Source of the DNA: an uncultured virus (IMG/VR IMGVR_UViG_3300022555_000016)
Lineage: Duplodnaviria; Heunggongvirae; Uroviricota; Caudoviricetes
IMG/VR virus record: IMGVR_UViG_3300022555_000016
Length of the DNA: 64,000 nt
Reading direction: 5' to 3' (one strand)
Below are positions 2,616-62,737 of the stretch, one piece after another. How positions within the stretch are numbered: position 1 is the first letter of the stretch; the number at the start of each line of letters is the position of its first letter. The notes beneath the pieces were generated by a model, which ran no database searches, had not been told where the DNA came from, and saw only the letters and a program-made list of their open reading frames with translations. The position numbers were made by a program, and so were the translations under genes.

Positions 2616-2813
2616 TTAACCAGGAAAACTAGATTGCAAAGAATCCATGTTTTCATTACTGCTGCTGGAGTCAACTACAATAGTTAAAGTGTTATCTTCG
2701 TTCTTAATAAGGTCAACAACAGAACCTTCAACAATCCCTAAGTCAGCGCAAAGCGTACGAGGTAGTCTTACAACTAATCCTTTATATCCCCACTTATTTA
2801 CGATAGTCTTCAT
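2616..2813 (-). CDS. AbrB/MazE/SpoVT-family DNA-binding (antitoxin-like) protein
   Basis: KWG..GLVVRLPRTLCADLGIVEGSVVDL swapped-hairpin motif. Confidence 0.75.
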   Translation of the reverse strand: MKTIVNKWGYKGLVVRLPRTLCADLGIVEGSVVDLIKNEDNTLTIVVDSSSSNENMDSLQSSFPG

Positions 2814-2817
2814 TTGG

Positions 2818-3081
2818 CTAAATCCTAGTCTTCTTAGTTTTTGGAGCGGCTAATGGCGAAAAAGGCTTCATTAAGTCATCAAAACTAATAGGTGTGTAGG
2901 TGTGCTTAACGTCCATTGTTACTAATTCGGGTTCCTTGGGAGGAACTTTAGTCACTACTAGACTGGAGTTTTCAAAGTCTAATTCAACAAAGTCACCATT
3001 CTTCAAGGATAATTTATCTACAACTTCTTTTGGAAGTTTAATAGACAACGAGCCTGCTGATTTAGTTAGTTTAACTTGCAT
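2818..3081 (-). CDS. AbrB/MazE-family DNA-binding (antitoxin-like) protein
   Basis: MQVKLTKSAGSLSIKLPKEVVDKLSLKNGDFVEL; start placed at ATG 3081. Confidence 0.75.
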   Translation of the reverse strand: MQVKLTKSAGSLSIKLPKEVVDKLSLKNGDFVELDFENSSLVVTKVPPKEPELVTMDVKHTYTPISFDDLMKPFSPLAAPKTKKTRI

Positions 3082-3579: not shown

Positions 3580-4038
3580 TTAGATTAGTCGTATGGAAAT
3601 AATCCGGTCAGGATTGACAACCATGCCTGTATCCTGCGGTCCTAACTTGATCTTGTCAATAGATTCCATGCCAGAAATAACGTGGCCTAGATGAGTGTAT
3701 TGACCGTTAAGGAACGGGGTGTCTGCGGTACAGATAAACATTTGACTAGAGGATGAATCTACAGATTGTGACCGAGCCATTCCTATAGACCCACGAACAA
3801 AGGGCGTGTTAGAAAACTCTGCTTTGACAGTAAAACTGACCCCTCCAGCACCATTTCCCAAGGGGCAGCCAAACTGAGCCATGAAATTTTGGATAACGCG
3901 ATGGAAAGCTAGGCCATCATAGAATCCACCGTTGATCAAATGCTTGATCAACTCACAGTGGTTTGGTGCCAGTGCTGGATTGAACTGAAGAATAGTTGAG
4001 CCGTGGATAGTGGTTAAATTAGCTTGCATTTGAAGCAC
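3580..4038 (-). CDS. cyclophilin-type peptidyl-prolyl cis-trans isomerase
   Basis: GFYDGLAFHRVIQNFMAQFGCP, RGSIGMARS, SQMFIC, FLNGQYT motifs; start may be ATG 4029. Confidence 0.95.
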   Translation of the reverse strand: MLQMQANLTTIHGSTILQFNPALAPNHCELIKHLINGGFYDGLAFHRVIQNFMAQFGCPLGNGAGGVSFTVKAEFSNTPFVRGSIGMARSQSVDSSSSQMFICTADTPFLNGQYTHLGHVISGMESIDKIKLGPQDTGMVVNPDRIISIRLI

Positions 4039-8059: not shown

Positions 8060-8133
8060 TGGTGGACCAGGAGGTAATCGAAACCTCCTATTCCGATTAA
8101 AAGTCGGGCGCATTACCACTAAACTACAGGTCC
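8060..8133 (-). tRNA. tRNA-Lys(UUU) with encoded CCA
   Basis: GGACCTG-TA-GTTTAGTGGTAATGC-G-CCCGA CT TTT AA TCGGA-ATAG-GAGGT TTCGATT ACCTC-CTGGTCC-A-CCA; one acceptor mismatch and a weak D stem. Confidence 0.85.
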
Positions 8134-9701: not shown

Positions 9702-10235
9702 CTAGCTTTTAATTTTCCTTTTGACTCCGAAGGGAACAGAAATAACGTTTCCTGTTGTAGTTGGTGTTGAGCTAATTGAATCTGAAGTAGAAGAAGTTAC
9801 TGAATCGGTAGGTTCAGACGAAGCGGCTTTATCAGACGAAGCGATTACTTGTTTAGCAGCACTTAGGATAAATTCTATATTAGCGGAGGGGTCACCGAAG
9901 TAAACAATAGAGTCAAACGGAATAGTTAAAATTTCCTTTACACCGTTGAAGTAGAGACCAATAGAGAAATAGAAGTCAAAAACTTTCAAATCTGACCACT
10001 GATGTTGAATTACTATTGTCATCCAGCCTGGGTATTTTTTGAGTAGAAAGTCTGGAATTAGTACACCTTTAGCAGAAGTGTTGAAGGTTATTCCAAAATA
10101 ATGTTCTCCAGGAAGGTATCCGTGCTCAGCTACCTTAAAAAGGACAGACTTAACCACTGATCTTAGTGCTACCTGTATCTCTGTAGCGTAGGCTATTGTT
10201 GAGAAGGGAGTTTGAAGTGATGTTGACATGGACAT
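9702..10235 (-). CDS. sspB: alphaproteobacterial-type SspB (ClpXP adaptor)
   Basis: ALRSVVKSVL..LPGEHYFGITFNT..GV..P..L..KYP..MTIVIQHQW..L.V...F.I.LYFNG..E.LTIPFDSI..FGDPS; Ser/Thr linker and C-terminal NVISVPFGVKRK tail. Confidence 0.88.
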   Translation of the reverse strand: MSMSTSLQTPFSTIAYATEIQVALRSVVKSVLFKVAEHGYLPGEHYFGITFNTSAKGVLIPDFLLKKYPGWMTIVIQHQWSDLKVFDFYFSIGLYFNGVKEILTIPFDSIVYFGDPSANIEFILSAAKQVIASSDKAASSEPTDSVTSSTSDSISSTPTTTGNVISVPFGVKRKIKS

Positions 10236-22076: not shown

Positions 22077-22499
22077 TTGACTATGTTAATCAAGAATAAG
22101 CGTAAAGCATATCATACAGTTGAGCAAAGGGTCTACTCTTGCCAATATCATGTAGTTTTATGCTCAAAGTTTAAACGTAAAGTTTTTGAAGGTGATGTTA
22201 AGAAAGCCTTTGAAAAATGGCTAAAAGATCAACAAGAGAACATTGGCTATACCCTTGTAGACTGCGAGATGGTTGTAGAGAGTATACACCTTGTACTAGA
22301 CGTAGACCCTAAAGTCGGAATACATAACGTAGTGGTTAGGATCAAGTCAGGCTCCTCAAACTATATCCGAAACAAATTTAAGGACGTAAAGACTAGGTTT
22401 CCATCCCTATGGTCACGCTCGTATTTTATTGCGTCTGTTGGGTCTGTTGCTCTACTAAGTATCAAGTCCTACATCCAAGCTCAAACAAAGTCCCAGTGA
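22077..22499 (+). CDS. tnpA: IS200/IS605 TnpA (Y1 HUH transposase) homolog, HUH degenerate
   Basis: VYSCQYHVV.CSKFKRK, IKSGSS, LWSRSYFIASVG, YIQAQ; the canonical DHVH reads ESIH. Confidence 0.9.
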   Translation: MTMLIKNKRKAYHTVEQRVYSCQYHVVLCSKFKRKVFEGDVKKAFEKWLKDQQENIGYTLVDCEMVVESIHLVLDVDPKVGIHNVVVRIKSGSSNYIRNKFKDVKTRFPSLWSRSYFIASVGSVALLSIKSYIQAQTKSQ

Positions 22500-22523
22500 C
22501 TTTTCAAGAAGGAGTGAACTAAT

Positions 22524-24611
22524 ATGTTTATAAATAGCTTAGGTCGTGTTTGTATAACTCCTGAAGAAGCTCAGGAAAAGGAAAACAAACTAGTTGAGAT
22601 GATTGATAAGGGTATTACAGATATAGCGGAATTGGCAACTCATTGGAATTGTCACTATGTTTCTATGTTACATTTCCTTAGAAGTAGGACTATTACTAGA
22701 AACGGACAAGACATACGGTTAGATATAGTGCTTAAAAATATTAGAGATGTTAAAAAGAAGGAAGCACATGATAAGATGATGTCATCAGTCAAAGCTTTAA
22801 TTGATGAGGGAGTAACTTCTATAAACGACTTAGCTATTAAACTAGAAGTTGACTATAACTTCATGTACCGTTTTCTAAGAAATAATAAACTGCTAAACCG
22901 GGGAAATGACGCAGGTCCTGTTAACTTCTTAAGAAACCGGACAACTTTAGACAAGACTTATGTTCTAAAATTGATAAAATCTGGTGTGGATTCTATCAGA
23001 GAATTAGCTGAAGAGGCGGGTGTTAATTATGAGACTATGGTTGACTTTCTTGATGATAAAGGTATCTCTAGAGAGAAGTTACTAGGTAGACGAGAACAGA
23101 ATAAAAGGGACTACCGAGATAACGTAGACAAGATAATAGAATTACTATCTAAAGGCTATACTAAAAAGGCGGTTGAGAAAGAGCTTGGTATAGGACGTAA
23201 AGGGGTTGATGTTATTTTAGACAGCCACCCTGAACTAAAAGATAGCTTTGAGAAGTCTCAAACCTCATATAATCTAAGTCTATACACTAATAGCATTGCA
23301 CCTCTGCTAAAAGCGGGAAAGTCTACTATAGAAATTAGTGAATTACTAAATCTTAAAGTAAGAGCTGTGCGTAGGGCTATAAAGGAGTTTAAAGAGAGTA
23401 AAAAGCCTGTTAAAACTAGGTTACTCGACAATAAGACTATGTCGAGGTTTAATAAACTGTTGGTTAAGGGTAGGTCCCTAGATAAAATTGCTAGAATTTT
23501 AGACTTACCTGCATCTTCTATGTTAGGCTATATCTATAGTAACCCACAGCTAATGGACTCTTATAACATTGTGGAAGACAAGTTTGGTTTAGAAAAGCAA
23601 ATAGCAGAAAAACTGTTTGCTTTATTAAGGTTAGGTACTACAGTAAGAGATATAAAAGATAGACTGAATATAAGCCACGCCTTATACTTTAGACTCAGGA
23701 AACGTTACGCAGAGGATTACGAAAAGGCTTTTCTAAAAAGCCACAATTTCGTAAATAAAATAGATACTGACACCAGAATGCTTCGCATAAAAGCAAACTA
23801 TTCCGCTCTTAAAAGTCGCTGCAAGAAACGCGGAATTCCTTTTGCTATTGAAATTGACGATGTTGAATATCCAGAGTATTGTCCAGTTTTAAATATAAAA
23901 CTAAACTATTTTGGTAAACGTGGTGAAGGAGATATGAGAAATTATTTTTCTTATGACAAATTTTACCCACGTAAAGGTTACCTCGTAGGTTTAGTATTTT
24001 GTATGAGTCACCGAGCTAACACACTTAAAAATGACCTTAAATCTTCAAGAGAATTAGGGTCAATAATTTCAGCTCTTAAAGGTGACCCTAAGTTTAAAAC
24101 TAACTATATCACAAACGATGACTACCGTATGAGTATGTACCGTAGGGCCAAGCACAGAGCTAAAAAGAAGGGTATGCCGTTTACTATAACGCCAGAAGAC
24201 ATCAAACTTCCTGCGAGATGTGTCGTGCTAGGCATACGTCTATGCTACACTAACGATACTATGAGATACAATTCGCCTTCACTTGATAGAATTGACAATT
24301 CGAGGGGGTACGAGCCCTCGAACATCTGGGTCATATCAGCGCGTGCTAATGGGCTAAAACTTGACGCTACTGTTGAAGAGCTTAAACTGTTGTTTAAGTG
24401 GATGCGTAAAGTAGAAGACGTTATGCTTATTAAGACTTTTAGAGACCTTAAACTCAACAAAACTAAAGGTGTTCCTCTATCATCTAAACCTAGAATTTCT
24501 ACAACACCTGTTGTAAAAGATCATCTTACTAAGTCTAAGGTGAATACTCCAGAAGACATTAAGGCAGAGATTAGTAGGCAGAGCCTGCTGAAACAACGAT
24601 CTCTATTTTAG
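22524..24611 (+). CDS. multi-HTH protein with two C-terminal HNH-like (beta-beta-alpha) nuclease domains
   Basis: About 6-7 HTH-like repeats; RxKKxGxPF..CPVL..SYDK/SLDRIDNSRGYEPSNIWVISARAN domains. Confidence 0.75.
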   Translation: MFINSLGRVCITPEEAQEKENKLVEMIDKGITDIAELATHWNCHYVSMLHFLRSRTITRNGQDIRLDIVLKNIRDVKKKEAHDKMMSSVKALIDEGVTSINDLAIKLEVDYNFMYRFLRNNKLLNRGNDAGPVNFLRNRTTLDKTYVLKLIKSGVDSIRELAEEAGVNYETMVDFLDDKGISREKLLGRREQNKRDYRDNVDKIIELLSKGYTKKAVEKELGIGRKGVDVILDSHPELKDSFEKSQTSYNLSLYTNSIAPLLKAGKSTIEISELLNLKVRAVRRAIKEFKESKKPVKTRLLDNKTMSRFNKLLVKGRSLDKIARILDLPASSMLGYIYSNPQLMDSYNIVEDKFGLEKQIAEKLFALLRLGTTVRDIKDRLNISHALYFRLRKRYAEDYEKAFLKSHNFVNKIDTDTRMLRIKANYSALKSRCKKRGIPFAIEIDDVEYPEYCPVLNIKLNYFGKRGEGDMRNYFSYDKFYPRKGYLVGLVFCMSHRANTLKNDLKSSRELGSIISALKGDPKFKTNYITNDDYRMSMYRRAKHRAKKKGMPFTITPEDIKLPARCVVLGIRLCYTNDTMRYNSPSLDRIDNSRGYEPSNIWVISARANGLKLDATVEELKLLFKWMRKVEDVMLIKTFRDLKLNKTKGVPLSSKPRISTTPVVKDHLTKSKVNTPEDIKAEISRQSLLKQRSLF

Positions 24612-29113: not shown

Positions 29114-29790
29114 GAGCTATTTCTCCTCTAGGAAAATTACGGCCTACGACTATCCACGACGATTGTTGTTTCGTACATAGAGATAATCCAAAACAATCAT
29201 TACCGGCCAGAAAGTCCAGGCAAGTAAGACTAAACAAAATAGCTTAACAATAGAAGCTAAACCCAACCAAAAATTATGATGAAACATGTAGTTAAACAAC
29301 ACTGAAAAGTTCAAATCCGCCATATTTCTTAAATTACCGATCATATAGACGAAAAAACCAAAAAAGTAAATAGTCCAAAAATAAATCATCACCAAACTCC
29401 TCAACTACCGATTAGAATCAAAAACAACAACTTGCCAATAAACAACCCACTGATGAAAGCACCCAACAAACAAATGTAGGCTTTGTCCACTTCAAACCCC
29501 ATTACCAAAAACCGTTAACTAAAAACTCGGACACGTTTTTGATCCGAACGTTGGTTTTAACCATTCTACTATCCCTGGAACCCGCAGCGTCCGTGTAGTG
29601 TTCTTCCTCATAGACTAGGCCGCAGTGTTTACACACATAGAAATATGGCTTTTCGGGATAGACCAATTGATCATTAACTACCGTTAGGAGTTTACCAAGA
29701 AAAACAAAATCCTCATGTATTTCGCTACAACAAGAACGACGATGAACAGCTGTTACCGTTACAGACATAACACCTCCTTAATTACGAGGT

Positions 29791-29928
29791 TGGTCGCAGG
29801 AGAGAATCGAACTCTCGTCTCGGCGCTGACCGTGTTCTACCATTGAACTAGAGAGTGCAAACACTCCCGAACGGAATTGAACCGCTCATCTCGGTAGGGT
29901 CCGTGTTTTACCATTAAACTACTGCAAC
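29791..29928 (-). ncRNA. double tRNA-like RNA (two D arms, two T arms, no normal anticodon arm)
   Basis: GTTGCAG-TA-GTTTAATGGTAAAAC-A-CGGACCCTACCG-AGAT-GAGCGGTTCAATTCCGTTC-GGGAGTG TTTG CACTCTC-TA-GTTCAATGGTAGAAC-A-CGGTCAGCGCCG-AGAC-GAGAGTTCGATTCTCTC-CTGCGAC-CA. Confidence 0.85.
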
Positions 29929-29973
29929 ACAGAGGGTGAGAGTAAGTCTAAGCTGTACTCCCACCCAAAATAG

Positions 29974-30483
29974 TTAGACTACAGTTCCATCAACTTTACC
30001 AATTAAAACCTCTCTAGCGGTAAAACTAGAACAACCTGTACCACCACCAATAGGTACAGTCTGATTTGTCAAGTTGTCAGAACTAATAACTCCTATTGCT
30101 GTAGTAGAACTCAACTCTGACCGAAGACGATAACCTTCCAACGGCCAAATCTGAGTAACTGCGTCTTGCCTAGCAATCTTACGACCTAGCTCCGCGTCAA
30201 AGTTCTCAGGGCTAGCACAAGCGGACTTACCGACCACTGTGAAACCGTTCTTGAGAACTAAAACACACAAGGTCAAGAGGGATAAGGCTACGGGAAGTGA
30301 AGCTATCGCTTCAGGCTTAGTTGCTTCCTTTGGAAGAGAATCGTAGTATTCCCCAAACACACCGTCAGAGGCTAAAAAATAAAACTCTTGGGTGATGGTG
30401 TTTTCAATGTCTTGAGGAGTAATCCTAGGAGCAGTTAAACCCTTAGCCTGAATTTCTGCTTCAATTTGATTGTTAGTAGACAT
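29974..30483 (-). CDS. N4 gp49/Sf6 gp66-family phage protein
   Basis: TAPRITPQDIE, LTLCVLVLKNGFTVVGKSACASPENFDAELGRKIA...IWPLEGY; start at MSTNN. Confidence 0.85.
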   Translation of the reverse strand: MSTNNQIEAEIQAKGLTAPRITPQDIENTITQEFYFLASDGVFGEYYDSLPKEATKPEAIASLPVALSLLTLCVLVLKNGFTVVGKSACASPENFDAELGRKIARQDAVTQIWPLEGYRLRSELSSTTAIGVISSDNLTNQTVPIGGGTGCSSFTAREVLIGKVDGTVV

Positions 30484-31100
30484 GGTTACTTGTTCCTTTG
30501 AGATGGTTGGCGCCACGGAGCGTTTAACAACAACGGAGCAAACGTTAGAGCATAATGAGAGTGTTGCTTCATTACAGCAGTACACGTCAACTCTTCTAAA
30601 ACTTTTTGAAAAGCCTCTTTGTCTCCAGTTACTGAACCGTCCGCATTGATTTGTACGGATATCCCAGGAAACGATATAGCGTAAGGATAAGCCGCCGTGA
30701 CTTCATCAGGCTTATTGCAATACATAACAGAATTTGAACCTTCCGACATGGTTACTTGACCCTTCTGACTAGAGTTAGACAGATTCAACAAGCAAGTCAA
30801 CGCCTAAAACTTTACCTACATAGGTTGTACCCTTATAGTTAAGTAAGTGCTTAGCCATAGCCTCAATATAAGTGGAGTAAGTACGCGGGTGTTGCATGGC
30901 ATACTTAAAACCTTTTAGACCGTCTTCCACCTTCTGGTTAGCGTCAAAAAAGTTTGCAAATTGAGGATCAGTGCTCAAGTCAACAAACTGTTTAGGAGGA
31001 ATTGTTAACTGTTGAATATGCTTACCTCTCACCTTAGCAGTTTCCATCTGCTTACAAAGAATTTCCAATGCTGACATAACTACTTGGTCCTTCCGACATG

Positions 31101-31916
31101 CTACTTATCCTTGGTTAAGACGACCGGATCAGCACCATCAAAGATGACTTCGACCCGGTTGGTGACGGTAGCGAAGGAAGGCATATCCAACCTAACAATC
31201 TCCCACCGTTCAATTGGACCAACAGGACGGTGTTTCTCTGGTATTTTACTCAGAACAGTAGCGTCCAACTCTTTAACTACTCGGCGCTTTTGCACGAAAG
31301 TTCCACGTTTAAAGAATGCTGGGTAGTTGTTCCAGTTGACACCTTTCTCAAAAAGCATCTCTTGGATGACACGGCAGTTCTTCTTGAACAACTGCTTAGA
31401 CGAATAGTAGTGCCGACCAGCCATCTCTATTGAGTTGCGGGTAGCGTCCCGTTCCCGCCACAGGATCATGTTTGCAGTTTCAATCAACGTCGGTAGGTTG
31501 ATTATTCTAGCGTCAAAGTGTGGCAGTAGTTTAGCTACCCTATCCGGCCAGTGCTTAACGGCCAAAGAAGTAAACTTTGCCGTGGTCATGGCTGCTAGGA
31601 CTGAGTGCAACTTGCTAAGCTTACCGTTGAAGAACGTTTGACTGGTAGGGTCAGGCTGGTACCACACTAGAGAGATTTCGTCAGACTGGGTGTAGCCCAG
31701 ATTAGCGTTAGCCTCAGCAACCAACCACTCAGTTGTTTGAATCATACACTCTGACAGGCGAAGATCGTAAGGCCGTTCCATTCCATGAGTAAACTTAGAG
31801 AAAGAACGACCGTCAACCCTAGCATAAATAGGGATCAAAGGAAGAAGGTGTCGGTCAGTTTCCCGCCGCTCATAGTCCTTCATCCTATCGCCAAAGTCAT
31901 CACGACGGCTAGACAT
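31101..31916 (-). CDS. thg1: tRNA(His) guanylyltransferase Thg1-like 3'-5' polymerase
   Basis: GDRMKDYE, RVDGRSFSKFT, YTQSDEISL, FDAR, WRERDATRNSI, FKRG. Confidence 0.95.
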   Translation of the reverse strand: MSSRRDDFGDRMKDYERRETDRHLLPLIPIYARVDGRSFSKFTHGMERPYDLRLSECMIQTTEWLVAEANANLGYTQSDEISLVWYQPDPTSQTFFNGKLSKLHSVLAAMTTAKFTSLAVKHWPDRVAKLLPHFDARIINLPTLIETANMILWRERDATRNSIEMAGRHYYSSKQLFKKNCRVIQEMLFEKGVNWNNYPAFFKRGTFVQKRRVVKELDATVLSKIPEKHRPVGPIERWEIVRLDMPSFATVTNRVEVIFDGADPVVLTKDK

Positions 31917-53053: not shown

Positions 53054-54787
53054 TCAACCGACGTAGTGATTGCCTCTAATTAACCGTGAGTCCTTCTGAA
53101 TCTGAATCTTGAAAGGTGTTGTTAGTACCTTCTTGACCCAGTCTTGGTCAACCGTAGGCAATCCCATACGAGTCTTGAACTTTCTAAGGACGTTTACTGA
53201 GGATTGAACGTCAGAGTGAACATGAATCCCTTTAGCGGTGATATACAAGCCTCGTCGGACCCGTGTACCACTGTAATGAGGACTGGGAGCACCCTTAACA
53301 TAGCATGGAGGGAGATAGTCACCGTCCATAGCAGACCCTTTACTAGTGTGTGATTCATTCTGTAAGTGGACTGTAATACCTACTGCTACGCACTTGTAGG
53401 TTAACATTTCCACGAACCGATTGAAGGGGAGCCTAGTAAAGTTCTTCATACCCTTAGCAAACTGTTTCCAGTCTAGATTCCTACCGATAACTAGGATTAC
53501 GACACCCTTCTCCACGAGCAGCTTCACTAGCGTGCTGGAAACGTTGTGGAGGTAGTGGTCCAGTCTATTTCTAAGCTTATTGTAAGCGGCTTGAATCCTC
53601 TTTGAAGAGTTCTGTGGGACTTTAGAAGTTAGAATCTGACTCAACTCCTGATCGTACTCAGGAGGCTCGGGGTACAATGAATCGTGAGTAGCAAAAGCTT
53701 GCTGAACCATCAAACCTAGCATAAGGTAGTTAAACGGGTTGGACTCAGGGTCTTTCAACTCCCTAAGACGTTTCCTCTTCAACTCTAGCTCTTCTTTAGC
53801 TTTAGTACGTTCGTCTATTAACTGACGTTCCCTAGCCGGTTTAGACCAGTAGAGGTCCCGTTTAAGCTCTTCTATCTGGTAGTAGGACCAAAGTAATAGA
53901 GACTTCAGAATCCAACCGTTAAAGGCTATAGGCTTTGGATTACCTTCGATTACCCCAGCGGCTGTAACGTTTAACCCTAGGTCAAAGCTTGCTATGGCTT
54001 GTAGTTCTTCCTGCTTAGCAGTCCAGTTACCTGTAATCTCTTCGTTGTAGACTACTTCTACGTTGTAACCACCTACTATTGGTATGTAGCGTACTTCCGT
54101 GATTCCAACGTCTCTTAGGACAGGTTTACCCCTGGAATCCTTCTTTATAGCTTGTTTACCGTTAGCGTCGGTAACAACTTGAGGTTGCATGTGGAGGGTG
54201 AAGGGTATTTCCTGTTTAAACTCAGGATTCTTAGGGCAAAGGGTGATGATTCCCTTGGGAGCAATAGACTCTGATAACCTAGCGCCTTTGACCTGTTTCC
54301 TATCAGAATCAATGATCTGACCACCGGACATGGTCTGGTAGGTAAATTTAACAGGCTTACGACTGTCAGTCCTACGGATGTACTTATCACCCTTGAATCC
54401 AGGCGGTTGAGGGCAAGCCTTGTACTTCTTAGGAAACTGTTTCTGGAGTTCCTTGCTTTTAGTCCACTCCCAGAAGTCAAACCAAGCTGCTTCGAAGGAC
54501 TTCCAGTCGTCATGGAGCATCTTAACGGTAGCTTGAGCTACTTTAGCAGGTAACCGTTGGTACTCTAGAGTCGGTTTTAACAGCTTAACTAGCTCTGGTA
54601 GACTAGGAATCCTACGCCGTTGGAAGCCTGGTTTCTTATAGTTGTCTTGGTTGTAATTCCAGATTTCTAGTAGAAGGTGGAGACCTACATGATAGAGTTT
54701 GGAGGACAAAAAGCAAGTACGATCAATACTCCTATCCCAAGGGTGTTTTGGACCTACAAACTGTTTTTGAGTCCTAGTTTCTAACAT
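53054..54787 (-). CDS. tnpB: TnpB-family RNA-guided nuclease, enlarged (577 aa), zinc-finger-less clade
   Basis: RuvC-I FDLGLN; RLDHYLHNVS; LVIGRNLDWKQ; NF..LPF..F..MLTYKC..VGI; NESHTSK; SGTRVRRGLY; RuvC-III HSDVQSSVNVLRK. Confidence 0.9.
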   Translation of the reverse strand: MLETRTQKQFVGPKHPWDRSIDRTCFLSSKLYHVGLHLLLEIWNYNQDNYKKPGFQRRRIPSLPELVKLLKPTLEYQRLPAKVAQATVKMLHDDWKSFEAAWFDFWEWTKSKELQKQFPKKYKACPQPPGFKGDKYIRRTDSRKPVKFTYQTMSGGQIIDSDRKQVKGARLSESIAPKGIITLCPKNPEFKQEIPFTLHMQPQVVTDANGKQAIKKDSRGKPVLRDVGITEVRYIPIVGGYNVEVVYNEEITGNWTAKQEELQAIASFDLGLNVTAAGVIEGNPKPIAFNGWILKSLLLWSYYQIEELKRDLYWSKPARERQLIDERTKAKEELELKRKRLRELKDPESNPFNYLMLGLMVQQAFATHDSLYPEPPEYDQELSQILTSKVPQNSSKRIQAAYNKLRNRLDHYLHNVSSTLVKLLVEKGVVILVIGRNLDWKQFAKGMKNFTRLPFNRFVEMLTYKCVAVGITVHLQNESHTSKGSAMDGDYLPPCYVKGAPSPHYSGTRVRRGLYITAKGIHVHSDVQSSVNVLRKFKTRMGLPTVDQDWVKKVLTTPFKIQIQKDSRLIRGNHYVG

Positions 54788-61670: not shown

Positions 61671-62084
61671 TTACAGTTTGCGTTGAAGTTCAATGAACGC
61701 TAGAATCTCTTTAACGGAGGAGGAACCTACTGTAGCAATGAAACAATTCTTGGTCCACATGCAAGGGATTCGACTCTTTAGGTCAGGAAACTTGGACCGT
61801 AGAATCCTAGCTGAACCATCTTTGATCTTATCAACTATAGACATAATAGTTACGGTTGGGGGTATGTCTACTACTACGTGAACATGGTCGTCTGTAATCT
61901 CCACTCCCAATAACACGTAACCAAACTCTACTTGTTTGTCTCTAATGAATCCCTTTAATACTGTAGAAATACCGTCAACCAAGACATGACGACGATACTT
62001 GGGGCAGAACACTATGTGGTACTGACAGGAGAAAACCTTGTTGTTTTCCTTACGGTAGGCTTTCTTGGGAGGCTTTACCAACAT
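61671..62084 (-). CDS. tnpA: IS200/IS605 TnpA homolog, catalytic Tyr replaced by Phe
   Basis: VFSCQYHIVFCPKYRR, intact DDHVH, IKDGSARILR, MWTKNCFIATVG, FIELQ instead of YIxxQ. Confidence 0.92.
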   Translation of the reverse strand: MLVKPPKKAYRKENNKVFSCQYHIVFCPKYRRHVLVDGISTVLKGFIRDKQVEFGYVLLGVEITDDHVHVVVDIPPTVTIMSIVDKIKDGSARILRSKFPDLKSRIPCMWTKNCFIATVGSSSVKEILAFIELQRKL

Positions 62085-62303: not shown

Positions 62304-62504
62304 TCAGTTACTCGCGCTACACGGTAGTACTGTCGATACAGCTTGGATGAATACTATTTGCTCAATACCTCTCCCAAATAGCTTGATAACTTTAGCATCA
62401 AATGCGGTGATCTGACCTTGAAGCTTAATTCCACTATTTAGGAAGATTGTGACTTCGGCTCTACGAGCTACCAAATCAGACAGAAAATCTTCTTGTACAG
62501 ACAT
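62304..62504 (-). CDS. hfq: Hfq-family Sm protein
   Basis: VQEDFL..VTIFLNSGIKLQGQITAFD..EQIVFIQAVSTVLP; start at ATG 62504. Confidence 0.9.
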   Translation of the reverse strand: MSVQEDFLSDLVARRAEVTIFLNSGIKLQGQITAFDAKVIKLFGRGIEQIVFIQAVSTVLPCSASN

Positions 62505-62737
62505 GTTAATAAGTCCCTTTATTATGAGGCACTTTTTCAAAAGTGACCTTCTTTGTTGAAAATAGATAAAATTTTAGTCATTATAGCAAACAACCAAACC
62601 CACACCCTTAAACTAAAATTAGGATTATTAAAAATATCTATTATAGTTAACTTATAATTTAACGGTACGTATAGCTACTTAGTCATTAAAATCAAGGCAT
62701 TATAGGCAGATAAACATAGTAGAATTTAGACAAAAAG

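What the first reader, a model, noticed from the sequence alone, without database searches (positions are those of the whole stretch)
29791..29928. Double-elbow tRNA: a tRNA whose anticodon arm leads into a second, circularly permuted tRNA
Seen (minus strand, 138 nt): two near-canonical D arms (TA-GTTT AATGGTA AAAC; TA-GTTC AATGGTA GAAC) and two T arms (TTCAATT, TTCGATT loops). The acceptor strands do not pair within each unit. The outer GTTGCAG pairs with the final CTGCGAC (followed by CA, overlapping CCA), while the inner GGGAGTG and CACTCTC pair with each other, capped by TTTG. Each anticodon region is only 12 nt (CGGACCCTACCG; CGGTCAGCGCCG). They fold either as 3-bp stubs or, better, with each other as a ~10-bp bulged helix. 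That gives an outer tRNA (acceptor-D1-T2) joined through its anticodon stem to an inner permuted tRNA (T1-capped acceptor-D2). Neither unit can decode. Known: the T/capped-acceptor/D permutation occurs in bacterial YrlA Y RNAs, but I know of no fusion to a second tRNA body. Inference: a purpose-built bivalent tRNA mimic, e.g. an anticodon-less decoy for tRNA-targeting defence nucleases, a sponge for elbow-binding proteins or a ribosome ligand. The swapped complementarity argues against two decayed tandem tRNAs.
Basis: partly seen in the sequence, partly recalled or inferred. Interest (0 to 1): 0.92.

Follow-up and report, generated by a model that had tools for sequence, protein, structure and literature searches.

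The report
Two-bodied anticodon-less phage tRNA mimic
A lake-water phage carries a 138-base gene for an RNA that should fold into two tRNA-shaped bodies sharing their strands, with no anticodon, so it cannot read codons and most likely works by imitating tRNA shape; the design recurs in other phages but its job is untested.

Summary
Window 29791-29928 (minus strand) has two tRNA-like units, each with canonical D and T arms. Their acceptor strands pair across units (7/7 outer, 7/7 inner capped by UUUG) and not within units (2/7 each). Each anticodon region is 12 nt. The unconstrained minimum-energy fold of the 138 nt is this double cloverleaf. ARAGORN calls nothing. Rfam gives only two borderline tRNA hits and no YrlA hit. 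Contigs from three studies carry the identical sequence, so it is not a mis-assembly.

I found no sequence homologue in GenBank phages, IMG/VR, JGI metagenomes or GTDB genomes. Homologue covariation for this locus is therefore untested. The same strand-swapped design, with unrelated stem sequences, occurs in a 276-kb phage contig and twice in another metagenome contig. Related two-headed permuted forms also exist.

Local stubs are about four times more probable, and 39% of loop shuffles cross-pair as well.

Best reading: a co-transcribed, RNase P-released, non-decoding bivalent tRNA mimic. A decoy or sponge role is inferred, not shown. Closest known are the YrlA tRNA-like module and phage T5 RNA2.

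The parts
29922..29928 (-). outer acceptor, 5' strand GUUGCAG (RNA 1-7)
   Evidence: pairs 7/7 with 29793-29799; pair probability 0.98-1.0
29905..29919 (-). D arm 1 (GUUU AAUGGUA AAAC), with U8 A9 before it
   Evidence: (Rfam tRNA alignment)
29892..29903 (-). 12-nt stub in place of anticodon arm 1 (CGGACCCUACCG)
   Evidence: a 3-bp local stub or half of an inter-unit helix, undecided
29869..29887 (-). T arm 1 (6-bp stem, loop UUCAAUU), preceded by AGAU
   Evidence: probability 0.97
29851..29868 (-). inner acceptor hairpin GGGAGUG-UUUG-CACUCUC
   Evidence: 7/7 pairs; probability 0.96-0.995
29834..29848 (-). D arm 2 (GUUC AAUGGUA GAAC), with U A before it
29821..29832 (-). 12-nt stub in place of anticodon arm 2 (CGGUCAGCGCCG)
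29800..29816 (-). T arm 2 (GAGAG UUCGAUU CUCUC), preceded by AGAC
29792..29799 (-). outer acceptor, 3' strand CUGCGAC plus discriminator C (29792)
   Evidence: discriminator statistics
29934..29966 (-). stable hairpin between the upstream stop codon and the RNA; no U tract
   Evidence: -18.9 kcal/mol, z -3.55; no terminator-like site
29766..29790 (-). 3' trailer: ACCUC (29786-29790) complementary to the Shine-Dalgarno GGAGGU (29772-29777) of the next ORF; ATG at 29766-29768
   Evidence: read; pairing not tested

Best explanation
The stretch encodes a non-decoding, two-bodied tRNA-like RNA of about 138 nt. SHOWN by sequence and folding: there are two complete sets of tRNA elbow parts (D loops AAUGGUA with G18 G19; T loops UUCAAUU and UUCGAUU; U8, A14, A21, G53-C61). 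The acceptor strands are swapped, so one acceptor stem closes the whole molecule and the other is an internal hairpin capped by UUUG. There is no anticodon loop. INFERRED: (1) The RNA is co-transcribed with the flanking minus-strand genes. It is cut out at its 5' end by RNase P and at its 3' end, after discriminator C, by a tRNA 3'-end nuclease. The upstream hairpin protects the 3' end of the upstream mRNA. (2) It folds into two L-shaped bodies. These are either joined end to end through a shared helix in the anticodon-stem position (nested form, as predicted for the analogues L299 and L298b), or they form a side-by-side strand-swapped pair with two short stubs. This sequence does not decide between the two; my odds are about 55:45 for nested. 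(3) It acts in trans by presenting two tRNA elbows and one acceptor end to proteins that read tRNA shape rather than codons. There would be two acceptor ends if RNase P also opens the 7-bp inner cap, as it does in M. smegmatis YrlA. The role I think most likely (about 0.3) is a decoy or sponge for a tRNA-body-binding host factor such as a tRNA-targeting defence enzyme, or a handle for tRNA end-repair enzymes. (4) Likely origin: tandem duplication of a single anticodon-less tRNA mimic. The units are 39/53 identical. In a fresh duplicate the strands can already pair across units, and later change locked the swapped fold.
For: Anatomy and pair counts. The MFE is the double cloverleaf, with acceptor pair probabilities of 0.96 or more. 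Each unit hits Rfam tRNA (29.3 and 31.2 bits), while ARAGORN finds no tRNA. The sequence is identical in contigs of 3 studies. It lies in a 205-nt gap between same-strand ORFs with no promoter-like or terminator-like site, with a stable hairpin upstream. The design recurs with unrelated stem sequences: L299 = L330 (276-kb viral contig; outer 7/7, inner 6/7 plus 2 further bp) and two tandem copies in L298 (outer 7/7, inner 6/7). A model of the window fold scores these best after the window itself (52.8, 42.8, 39.7 bits). On the model-fitted alignment of the 4 sequences, 97% of cells pair (67% in shuffles; 39-46% when the partners are slid). 6 of 7 outer and 7 of 7 inner acceptor pairs change on both sides. 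Other two-headed permuted forms exist: L329, L316, L309, L325. Single-unit phage mimics with the same 12-nt stub + AGAU exist, such as L291. [quoted passage not shown]
Against: I found no sequence homologue of this element, so there is no covariation among true orthologues. The 4-sequence alignment was fitted to the model and its rows are probably analogues, not orthologues. There is no RNA evidence. The fold z-score is modest (-2.02). The nested helix is not favoured by energy and is no better than shuffled loops. No partner protein is identifiable: the neighbours are orphans, and the analogue loci share no neighbour families. A single tRNA-like fold would suffice for mRNA processing, so an effect in cis cannot be excluded.
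Confidence: 0.55

Rival explanations
1. It is a cis-acting punctuation element. The tRNA-like fold exists only to direct RNase P and a 3' nuclease to cut the polycistronic mRNA between the gp49/66-family gene and the downstream small ORF. The released RNA has no job of its own.
For: No promoter-like or terminator-like site around it. A stable hairpin with no U tract lies just upstream and could protect the new 3' end. The RNA ends 14 nt before the Shine-Dalgarno sequence of the next ORF, and its trailer ACCUC is complementary to that sequence.
Against: One acceptor/T minihelix is enough for RNase P. Here a second complete elbow and a 7-bp inner acceptor are kept with all canonical loop bases. 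The same two-bodied design recurs inside tRNA clusters of other phages, where no mRNA needs cutting (L299, L309).
Confidence: 0.2
2. It is a histidine-type acceptor mimic served by the phage's Thg1-like enzyme. After RNase P cleavage the Thg1-like protein encoded 1.2 kb upstream adds G-1 opposite discriminator C73. The RNA is then bound or charged by HisRS without any anticodon.
For: The outer discriminator is C and base -1 is U. Among 549 ARAGORN tRNAs of my loci, C73 occurs in 28, and 18 of those are tRNA-His. The neighbouring protein is closest to the bacterial Thg1-like protein 4kgk (E 6e-35). A Thg1-like protein binds the acceptor stem and elbow, not the anticodon, in its repair mode (PMC4820378, passages read). 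L298 also has C73.
Against: That paper reports that G-1 addition itself uses the His anticodon, which is absent here. In 19 other phage loci with this enzyme I found no tRNA-His and no such RNA within 6 kb. L299 has G73. The D arm type is not isotype-specific. 65 kb of the contig are unseen and may hold a normal tRNA-His.
Confidence: 0.08
3. It is a Y-RNA-type scaffold: the tRNA-like head of a YrlA-like RNA working with a Ro60/Rsr protein and exonucleases.
For: The inner module has the T arm / capped acceptor / D arm order of YrlA. YrlA-like loci were picked up by the same pattern (L305, L320).
Against: No RF02553 match even at E up to 10. There is no terminal Ro-binding helix or GNCGAA motif. 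No TROVE domain in the 116 window ORFs scanned.
Confidence: 0.07
4. It is non-functional debris: two decaying tandem tRNA genes, or an assembly chimera.
For: No homologues and no expression data. The two units are 74% alike, as a recent duplication would be.
Against: Cross-unit pairing is 7/7 + 7/7 against 2/7 + 2/7 within units. The D and T stems differ between units by compensating changes. Identical contigs come from 3 studies. The design recurs elsewhere.
Confidence: 0.05

Closest known systems
YrlA (Y RNA-like A, Rfam RF02553; Chen et al. 2014, PMC4201824)
   Same: The inner module has the same order: T arm, acceptor-like stem closed by a loop, D arm, with tRNA-type loop bases. M. smegmatis YrlA, which has a 7-bp capped acceptor, is cut there by RNase P and receives CCA (passages read).
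   Different: No Ro60-binding terminal helix or motif, no Rfam match, and no Ro60/TROVE gene in the window. Here the module is closed by a second, ordinary tRNA body with its own acceptor stem.
Phage T5 RNA2 (AY543070 32959-33083, annotated 'tRNA-like stable RNA with unknown functions')
   Same: A tRNA shell (8-bp acceptor, D arm, T arm) whose anticodon-position stem encloses a second T arm, so a two-elbow, non-decoding phage RNA.
   Different: T5 RNA2 has no inner acceptor stem and only a small D-like hairpin. It lies in the tRNA cluster. There is no sequence or model similarity (no blastn match; no R1 match at E up to 1).
Canonical tRNA (Rfam RF00005)
   Same: D and T arms, U8/A9, a 4-nt variable region, and a 7-bp acceptor with a discriminator base.
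   Different: Acceptor strands pair across units, not within them. 12-nt stubs replace the 17-nt anticodon arms. No encoded CCA, whereas the phage's own tRNA-Lys encodes one.
Circularly permuted tRNA genes of algae and archaea (recalled; earlier scan notes)
   Same: The back half of a tRNA is written before the front half, with the acceptor ends joined.
   Different: Those genes yield a decoding tRNA after cutting and ligation at a bulge-helix-bulge motif. Here there is no anticodon and the setting is bacterial/phage.

Membership tests
tRNA (RF00005) | acceptor stem formed by the 5' and 3' ends of one ~75-nt unit | tested here: not met
   within-unit pairing is 2/7 in both units; it is 7/7 only across units
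tRNA (RF00005) | 5-bp anticodon stem with a 7-nt loop | tested here: not met
   12 nt in each unit; the Rfam alignment skips 11 model positions; ARAGORN makes no call
tRNA (RF00005) | D and T arms with conserved loop bases; score at or above the gathering threshold | tested here: met
   29.3 and 31.2 bits against a threshold of 29, so borderline
YrlA (RF02553) | tRNA-like module in the order T arm, capped acceptor-like stem, D arm | tested here: met
   RNA 42-95
YrlA (RF02553) | terminal Ro60-binding helix with the conserved GNCGAA-type motif (as named in PMC4201824) | tested here: not met
   the ends form a 7-bp acceptor stem; the motif is not in the 138 nt
YrlA (RF02553) | match to the Rfam covariance model | tested here: not met
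   no RF02553 match at E up to 10 in 29500-30250
YrlA (RF02553) | Ro60/Rsr (TROVE) gene nearby | tested here: not met
   no TROVE hit in the 23 + 93 window ORFs; about 65 kb of the 129-kb contig could not be read
T5 RNA2-type tRNA-like stable RNA | tRNA shell with a second T arm in place of the anticodon loop | tested here: met
T5 RNA2-type tRNA-like stable RNA | sequence or model similarity to T5 RNA2 | tested here: not met
   no blastn match to GenBank phages; R1 does not match L313 3460-3584 at E up to 1
T5 RNA2-type tRNA-like stable RNA | accumulates as a stable RNA in infected cells | not testable with these tools
   no RNA run holds the stretch
Permuted tRNA gene | processing yields a tRNA with an anticodon | tested here: not met
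   no anticodon loop in either unit

The most novel reading that the evidence does not exclude
This is one member of an undescribed class of phage 'strand-swapped' multi-headed tRNA mimics. They arise from tandem anticodon-less tRNA-like units whose acceptor strands evolve to pair with the neighbouring unit. RNase P opens both the outer end and the inner cap, giving a two-piece RNA with two elbows and two CCA ends. That RNA cross-links or titrates tRNA-shape-reading proteins such as host tRNA-targeting immune enzymes or tRNA end-repair and charging enzymes. Here it may carry a histidine-type C73 end serviced by the neighbouring Thg1-like enzyme.
Probability: 0.2. Interest if true: 0.85.

Novelty: new variant of a known kind. 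Interest (0 to 1): 0.68.

Why it matters
Phages are known to carry tRNAs, and a few carry 'tRNA-like stable RNAs' whose function has stayed unknown for decades (T5 RNA1/2, T4 species 1/2). A clean design made of two complete tRNA bodies and no anticodon says that tRNA shape itself is the useful property, and that presenting two bodies at once is useful too. The design recurs with unrelated sequences in several phage lineages. If it is a decoy or a handle for tRNA-reading enzymes, it would be a new RNA-based tactic in phage-host conflict over tRNA. It would also be a compact natural scaffold for studying elbow recognition. The strand-swap route from a tandem duplicate is a simple, testable way for new RNA architectures to evolve.

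Tried and rejected
Searches for homologues found none.
- blastn of the element and of 10 kb around it against GenBank phages: no match. The same for the L299 and L298 elements.
- IMG/VR scans with an exact 22-mer and with a degenerate D-loop/stub pattern: 0 matches.
- IMG/VR T-loop-to-D-arm pattern: 120 loci listed of about 210. Inner complementarity was 7/7 in 1 locus and 6/7 in 11. Those I read (gap of 25 nt or less) were ordinary tandem tRNAs.
- IMG/VR short-anticodon pattern: 74 stretches, 40 distinct. They were single mimics or chance matches, and none was double apart from the tandem pair L291.
- Double patterns: 19 metagenome stretches, one of which is the window's own contig L302; 3 and 4 viral stretches; 11 in GTDB genomes, none of which has a swapped outer acceptor.

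Other lines that gave nothing.
- Synteny: of 22 window proteins, only the Thg1-like one matches the 19 Thg1 loci. tblastx of L332, L329, L299, L298 and L331 against the window found nothing.
- The scan with the gp49/66-family protein gave 80 unrelated loci and was of no use.
- No whole genome is held for the window, and its contig is not held for a record-wide search.
- The genome search with model R1 on 5 viral records missed L330's own element, so that route is insensitive.
- No RNA holder is listed among the 8 runs.
- Isotype from the D arm: not informative.
- Neighbour functions: Pfam, PHROGs and NCBIfam give nothing for the adjacent small ORFs. The flanks of the analogues share no families.
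- T4 rnaC and rnaD have only one T arm and are not a parallel.

Literature. Searches on YrlA/phage, Thg1/phage, T5 stable RNA, anticodon-nuclease decoys, permuted tRNA/bacteriophage, megaphage tRNA introns and 'two elbows' found no description of this design. The 2026 preprint on bacterial tRNA mimics (outline and abstract read) and the 2023 viral structured-RNA survey (passages read) do not describe it. That survey's supplementary tables were not opened.

Full report
WHAT IS THERE

On the minus strand of window 29791-29928 lie two tRNA-like units of 67-71 nt. Each unit has U8-A9, a 4-bp D stem with the loop AAUGGUA, an A at position 26, a 12-nt stretch where the 17-nt anticodon arm should be, a 4-nt variable region (AGAU, AGAC), and a T arm with loop UUCAAUU or UUCGAUU closed by G53-C61.

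The acceptor strands do not pair within a unit (2/7 and 2/7) but pair perfectly across units. GUUGCAG (1-7) pairs with CUGCGAC (130-136). GGGAGUG (61-67) pairs with CACUCUC (72-78) across a UUUG cap.

Without any constraint, RNAfold returns exactly this double cloverleaf as the minimum-energy structure of the 138 nt. The energy is -44.3 kcal/mol, the z-score is -2.02, and 7 of 200 shuffles fold as well. Pair probabilities are 0.98-1.0 for the outer acceptor and 0.96-0.995 for the inner one.

ARAGORN finds only a tRNA-Lys(UUU) at 8060-8133 in the whole window. Rfam gives two borderline tRNA matches, one per unit (29.3 and 31.2 bits; threshold 29). It gives no YrlA, tmRNA or other family match even at E up to 10.

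- T stem 1 has 6 bp, not 5.
- No CCA is encoded. The tail after the stem is C-A-A-C-C, whereas the phage's own tRNA-Lys encodes A-CCA.
- The 12-mers do not pair better with each other (see below).

IS IT REAL DNA, AND IS IT MORE THAN CHANCE?

The window is part of a 129,496-nt metagenome contig (L302). The stretch is held by 8 DNA runs of 3 freshwater or lake studies. Contigs of runs from two studies other than the likely source cover the element without a single difference: X6 record 3 covers 29765-30003, X7 record 6 covers 29625-29922, and X2 holds it in a 38-kb contig. A mis-assembly is excluded.

As a null, I took 335 distinct adjacent tRNA pairs called by ARAGORN in my loci. Cross-unit 7/7 pairing occurred 7 times for the outer strands and 3 times for the inner strands. 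Both were 6/7 or better in 9 pairs, but all of these also keep their normal within-unit pairing, so they are near-duplicates. Full cross-unit pairing together with lost within-unit pairing, as here, is not a chance pattern.

CONTEXT

The window is phage-like. It encodes a UvsX-type recombinase, SSB, primase, SbcD-like nuclease, ribonucleotide reductase, Hfq, SspB, a DNA methylase, IS200/IS605 genes and many orphan ORFs, nearly all on the minus strand.

The element fills a 205-nt gap between a Phage_gp49_66-family gene (29974-30585) and an 88-aa zinc-ribbon-like ORF (29502-29768), on the same strand. No promoter-like or terminator-like site lies within 29300-30700. A stable hairpin with no U tract (29934-29966; -18.9 kcal/mol; z -3.55) sits between the upstream stop codon and the RNA. 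So the RNA is probably co-transcribed and cut out.

A Thg1-like gene lies 1.2 kb upstream (31101-31916; Pfam Thg1 2e-30; nearest solved structure the bacterial Thg1-like protein 4kgk, E 6e-35). No TROVE/Ro60, RtcB or RNA ligase was found in 116 window ORFs.

RELATIVES

I found no sequence homologue. blastn against GenBank phages gave nothing. Eight pattern scans of IMG/VR, one of JGI metagenomes and one of GTDB genomes gave nothing with this sequence except the window's own contig. There is no synteny with 19 other Thg1-bearing phage loci.

The architecture, however, recurs.
- L299, which is identical to L330 (a 276,032-nt IMG/VR contig rated 100% complete), carries a 150-nt element in a tRNA cluster. 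Its outer strands are GAUGAUA/UAUCGUC (7/7) and its inner hairpin is AGGACUGUG-CUAGAA-CACAGGCCU. It has two canonical D arms, two T arms and no anticodon loop.
- L298 (L312 holds the same sequence from another record) carries two tandem copies. Their outer strands are GGAUGUG/CACAUCC (7/7, discriminator C) and their inner capped acceptor pairs 6/7. In these copies unit 2 keeps a full anticodon arm, CAU in one copy and UUU in the other.
- A covariance model of the window's fold (R1) ranks these highest after the window itself among 83 sources: 52.8, 42.8 and 39.7 bits. Single tRNAs or single mimics scored 41.7 bits or less.
- On the model-fitted alignment of the four sequences, 97% of cells pair, against 67% in shuffles and 39-46% when the partners are slid. 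6 of 7 outer-acceptor pairs and 7 of 7 inner-acceptor pairs change on both sides. The caveats are that there are only four rows, the alignment was fitted to the model, and the rows are probably analogues rather than orthologues.

Other topologies of the same idea turned up.
- L329 has an 11-bp terminal stem enclosing two permuted tRNA heads.
- L316, L309 and L325 are chains of T arm / capped stem / D arm.
- L305 and L320 are YrlA-like RNAs.
- Many single phage tRNA-likes have shortened anticodon arms. One example is L291, a tandem pair with a 12-nt GNRA-capped stub followed by AGAU, as in the window.

Earlier notes of this scan describe the same design in other phages. They are unchecked leads, not evidence.

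HOW THE TWO BODIES ARE JOINED

There are two possible folds. In form A each 12-mer makes its own 3-4-bp stub, and the two L-shaped bodies are a side-by-side strand-swapped pair. In form B the two 12-mers pair with each other, giving two ordinary four-way tRNA junctions joined end to end.

For this sequence the nearest-neighbour model slightly prefers A:
- The energies are -43.0 or -44.3 for A against -43.2 for B.
- With all arms enforced, the probabilities are 0.73-0.77 for local pairs against 0.18-0.19 for cross pairs.
- The cross pairing is no better than in shuffled loops: 39% of 400 shuffles reach it.

Both stubs share the same CGG/CCG stem, which a duplication would produce anyway.

In favour of B:
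- Every linker then stays within one body.
- In L299 the arms-enforced fold forms a 9-bp + 3-bp inter-unit helix.
- In L298b a CCCA/UGGG inter-unit helix closes the inner body. That helix sequence is conserved in both L298 copies.

I leave the question open, at about 55:45 for B.

MECHANISM

The RNA cannot decode, and that much is shown by the sequence. The rest is inference.

It keeps everything that RNase P, 3'-end nucleases, the CCA-adding enzyme, T- and D-loop modifying enzymes and Thg1-like repair enzymes read, namely the acceptor/T stack and the elbow. It keeps them twice. Chen et al. report that M. smegmatis YrlA, alone among the Y RNAs they tested in having a 7-bp capped acceptor, is cut in the cap by RNase P in vitro and in vivo and then receives CCA (PMC4201824, passages read). 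The window's inner acceptor is also 7 bp, so a two-piece form with two free acceptor ends is possible.

The simplest working model is a released, stable, bivalent tRNA-shape mimic that binds or titrates tRNA-body-reading proteins. Which proteins these are is unknown.

One specific idea is a histidine-type end. The discriminator is C73, and in my sample 18 of the 28 tRNAs with C73 are tRNA-His. Base -1 is U, and a Thg1-like enzyme is encoded nearby. Such enzymes bind the acceptor stem and elbow without the anticodon in their repair mode (PMC4820378, passages read).

Several points count against this idea:
- The same paper says G-1 addition uses the His anticodon.
- None of 19 other phage Thg1 loci has a tRNA-His or a two-bodied element of this kind within 6 kb.
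- L299 has G73.

The main rival is a purely cis-acting processing signal. The operon position and the flanking hairpin fit it. A second complete body is more than that job needs, and analogues sit inside tRNA clusters.

ORIGIN (INFERENCE)

The two units are 39/53 identical, with compensating differences in the D and T stems. In a fresh tandem duplicate of a single mimic such as L291, the 3' acceptor strand of copy 1 is already complementary to the 5' strand of copy 2. Divergence that keeps only the cross-unit pairs would lock the swapped fold.

COMPARISON AND NOVELTY

The inner module works like the tRNA-like head of YrlA. The RNA nevertheless fails YrlA membership on the Ro-binding helix, the Rfam model and the Ro60 neighbour.

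Phage T5 RNA2 (AY543070 32959-33083) is the nearest described phage RNA. It is a tRNA shell whose anticodon-position stem holds a second T arm, and it is annotated 'tRNA-like stable RNA with unknown functions'. It lacks the inner acceptor and shows no similarity to the window element.

Seven literature searches found no description of a tRNA joined to a complete permuted tRNA body. I therefore rate it a new variant of a known kind (phage or bacterial tRNA mimics), real as a structure-bearing gene, with its function untested.

Noticed in passing
window 29934-29966 (-): A strong hairpin (GGGUGGGAGUA...UACUCUCACCC; -18.9 kcal/mol, z -3.55) with no U tract lies right after the upstream stop codon. 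Its stem shares GGGAGU/ACUCUC with the inner acceptor of the RNA.
   Followed up: partly
window 29772-29790 (-): The 3' trailer ACCUC is complementary to the Shine-Dalgarno GGAGGU of the next ORF (start at 29768). This could couple translation to RNA processing.
   Followed up: no
window 31101-31916 (-): A phage Thg1-like 3'-5' polymerase, closest to the bacterial Thg1-like protein 4kgk. 19 relatives occur in IMG/VR contigs of 8.7-490 kb, and none has a tRNA-His within 6 kb.
   Followed up: partly
window 62304-62540, 9702-10235, 3580-4038 (-): The phage encodes an Hfq, an SspB-like adaptor and a cyclophilin-type prolyl isomerase.
   Followed up: no
window 22077-24611 (+), 53054-54787 (-), 61671-62084 (-): There are two IS200-type TnpA genes and a TnpB/Cas12f-like gene. 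A 695-aa HTH + HNH/endonuclease VII protein is among the few plus-strand genes.
   Followed up: no
L298 1420-1567 and 1637-1782 (+): Two tandem strand-swapped double units whose inner, capped-acceptor body keeps a full anticodon arm, CAU in one copy and UUU in the other. The inner tRNA is opened in its variable loop by a CCCA/UGGG helix.
   Followed up: partly
L329 2958-3092 (-): A viral contig carries an 11-bp terminal stem (GUGCCCCGAAG/CUUCGGGGCAC) enclosing two permuted tRNA heads in series, like a two-headed Y RNA. No tRNA genes were called in the 6-kb locus.
   Followed up: partly
L301, L304, L306, L307, L318, L319, L326 (around the pattern match): In bacterial contigs and MAGs, a tRNA-like gene has its anticodon loop replaced by a tetraloop on a 5-bp stem (for example CCGGA-GCGA-UCCGG). 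It is followed directly by an ordinary-looking tRNA and has a conserved upstream 'GUGUUCCGC'.
   Followed up: no
L296, L297, L321-L324, L327, L328: Nostocales cyanobacteria carry a conserved anticodon-less tRNA-like gene (acceptor GUUUGAU/AUCAAAC, encoded CCA in some). It lies directly upstream of a tRNA with an unusual anticodon loop.
   Followed up: no
L299 about 2790-2905 (+): A tRNA-like gene of the 276-kb phage has an insert of roughly 40 nt in its anticodon region, just upstream of the double element.
   Followed up: no
L006 2924-3024 (-); L001 6795-6852 (-): Near phage Thg1-like genes there is a skipping-rope RNA match (52.9 bits, above threshold) and a near-threshold type II hammerhead match (35.6 against 37 bits).
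   Followed up: no
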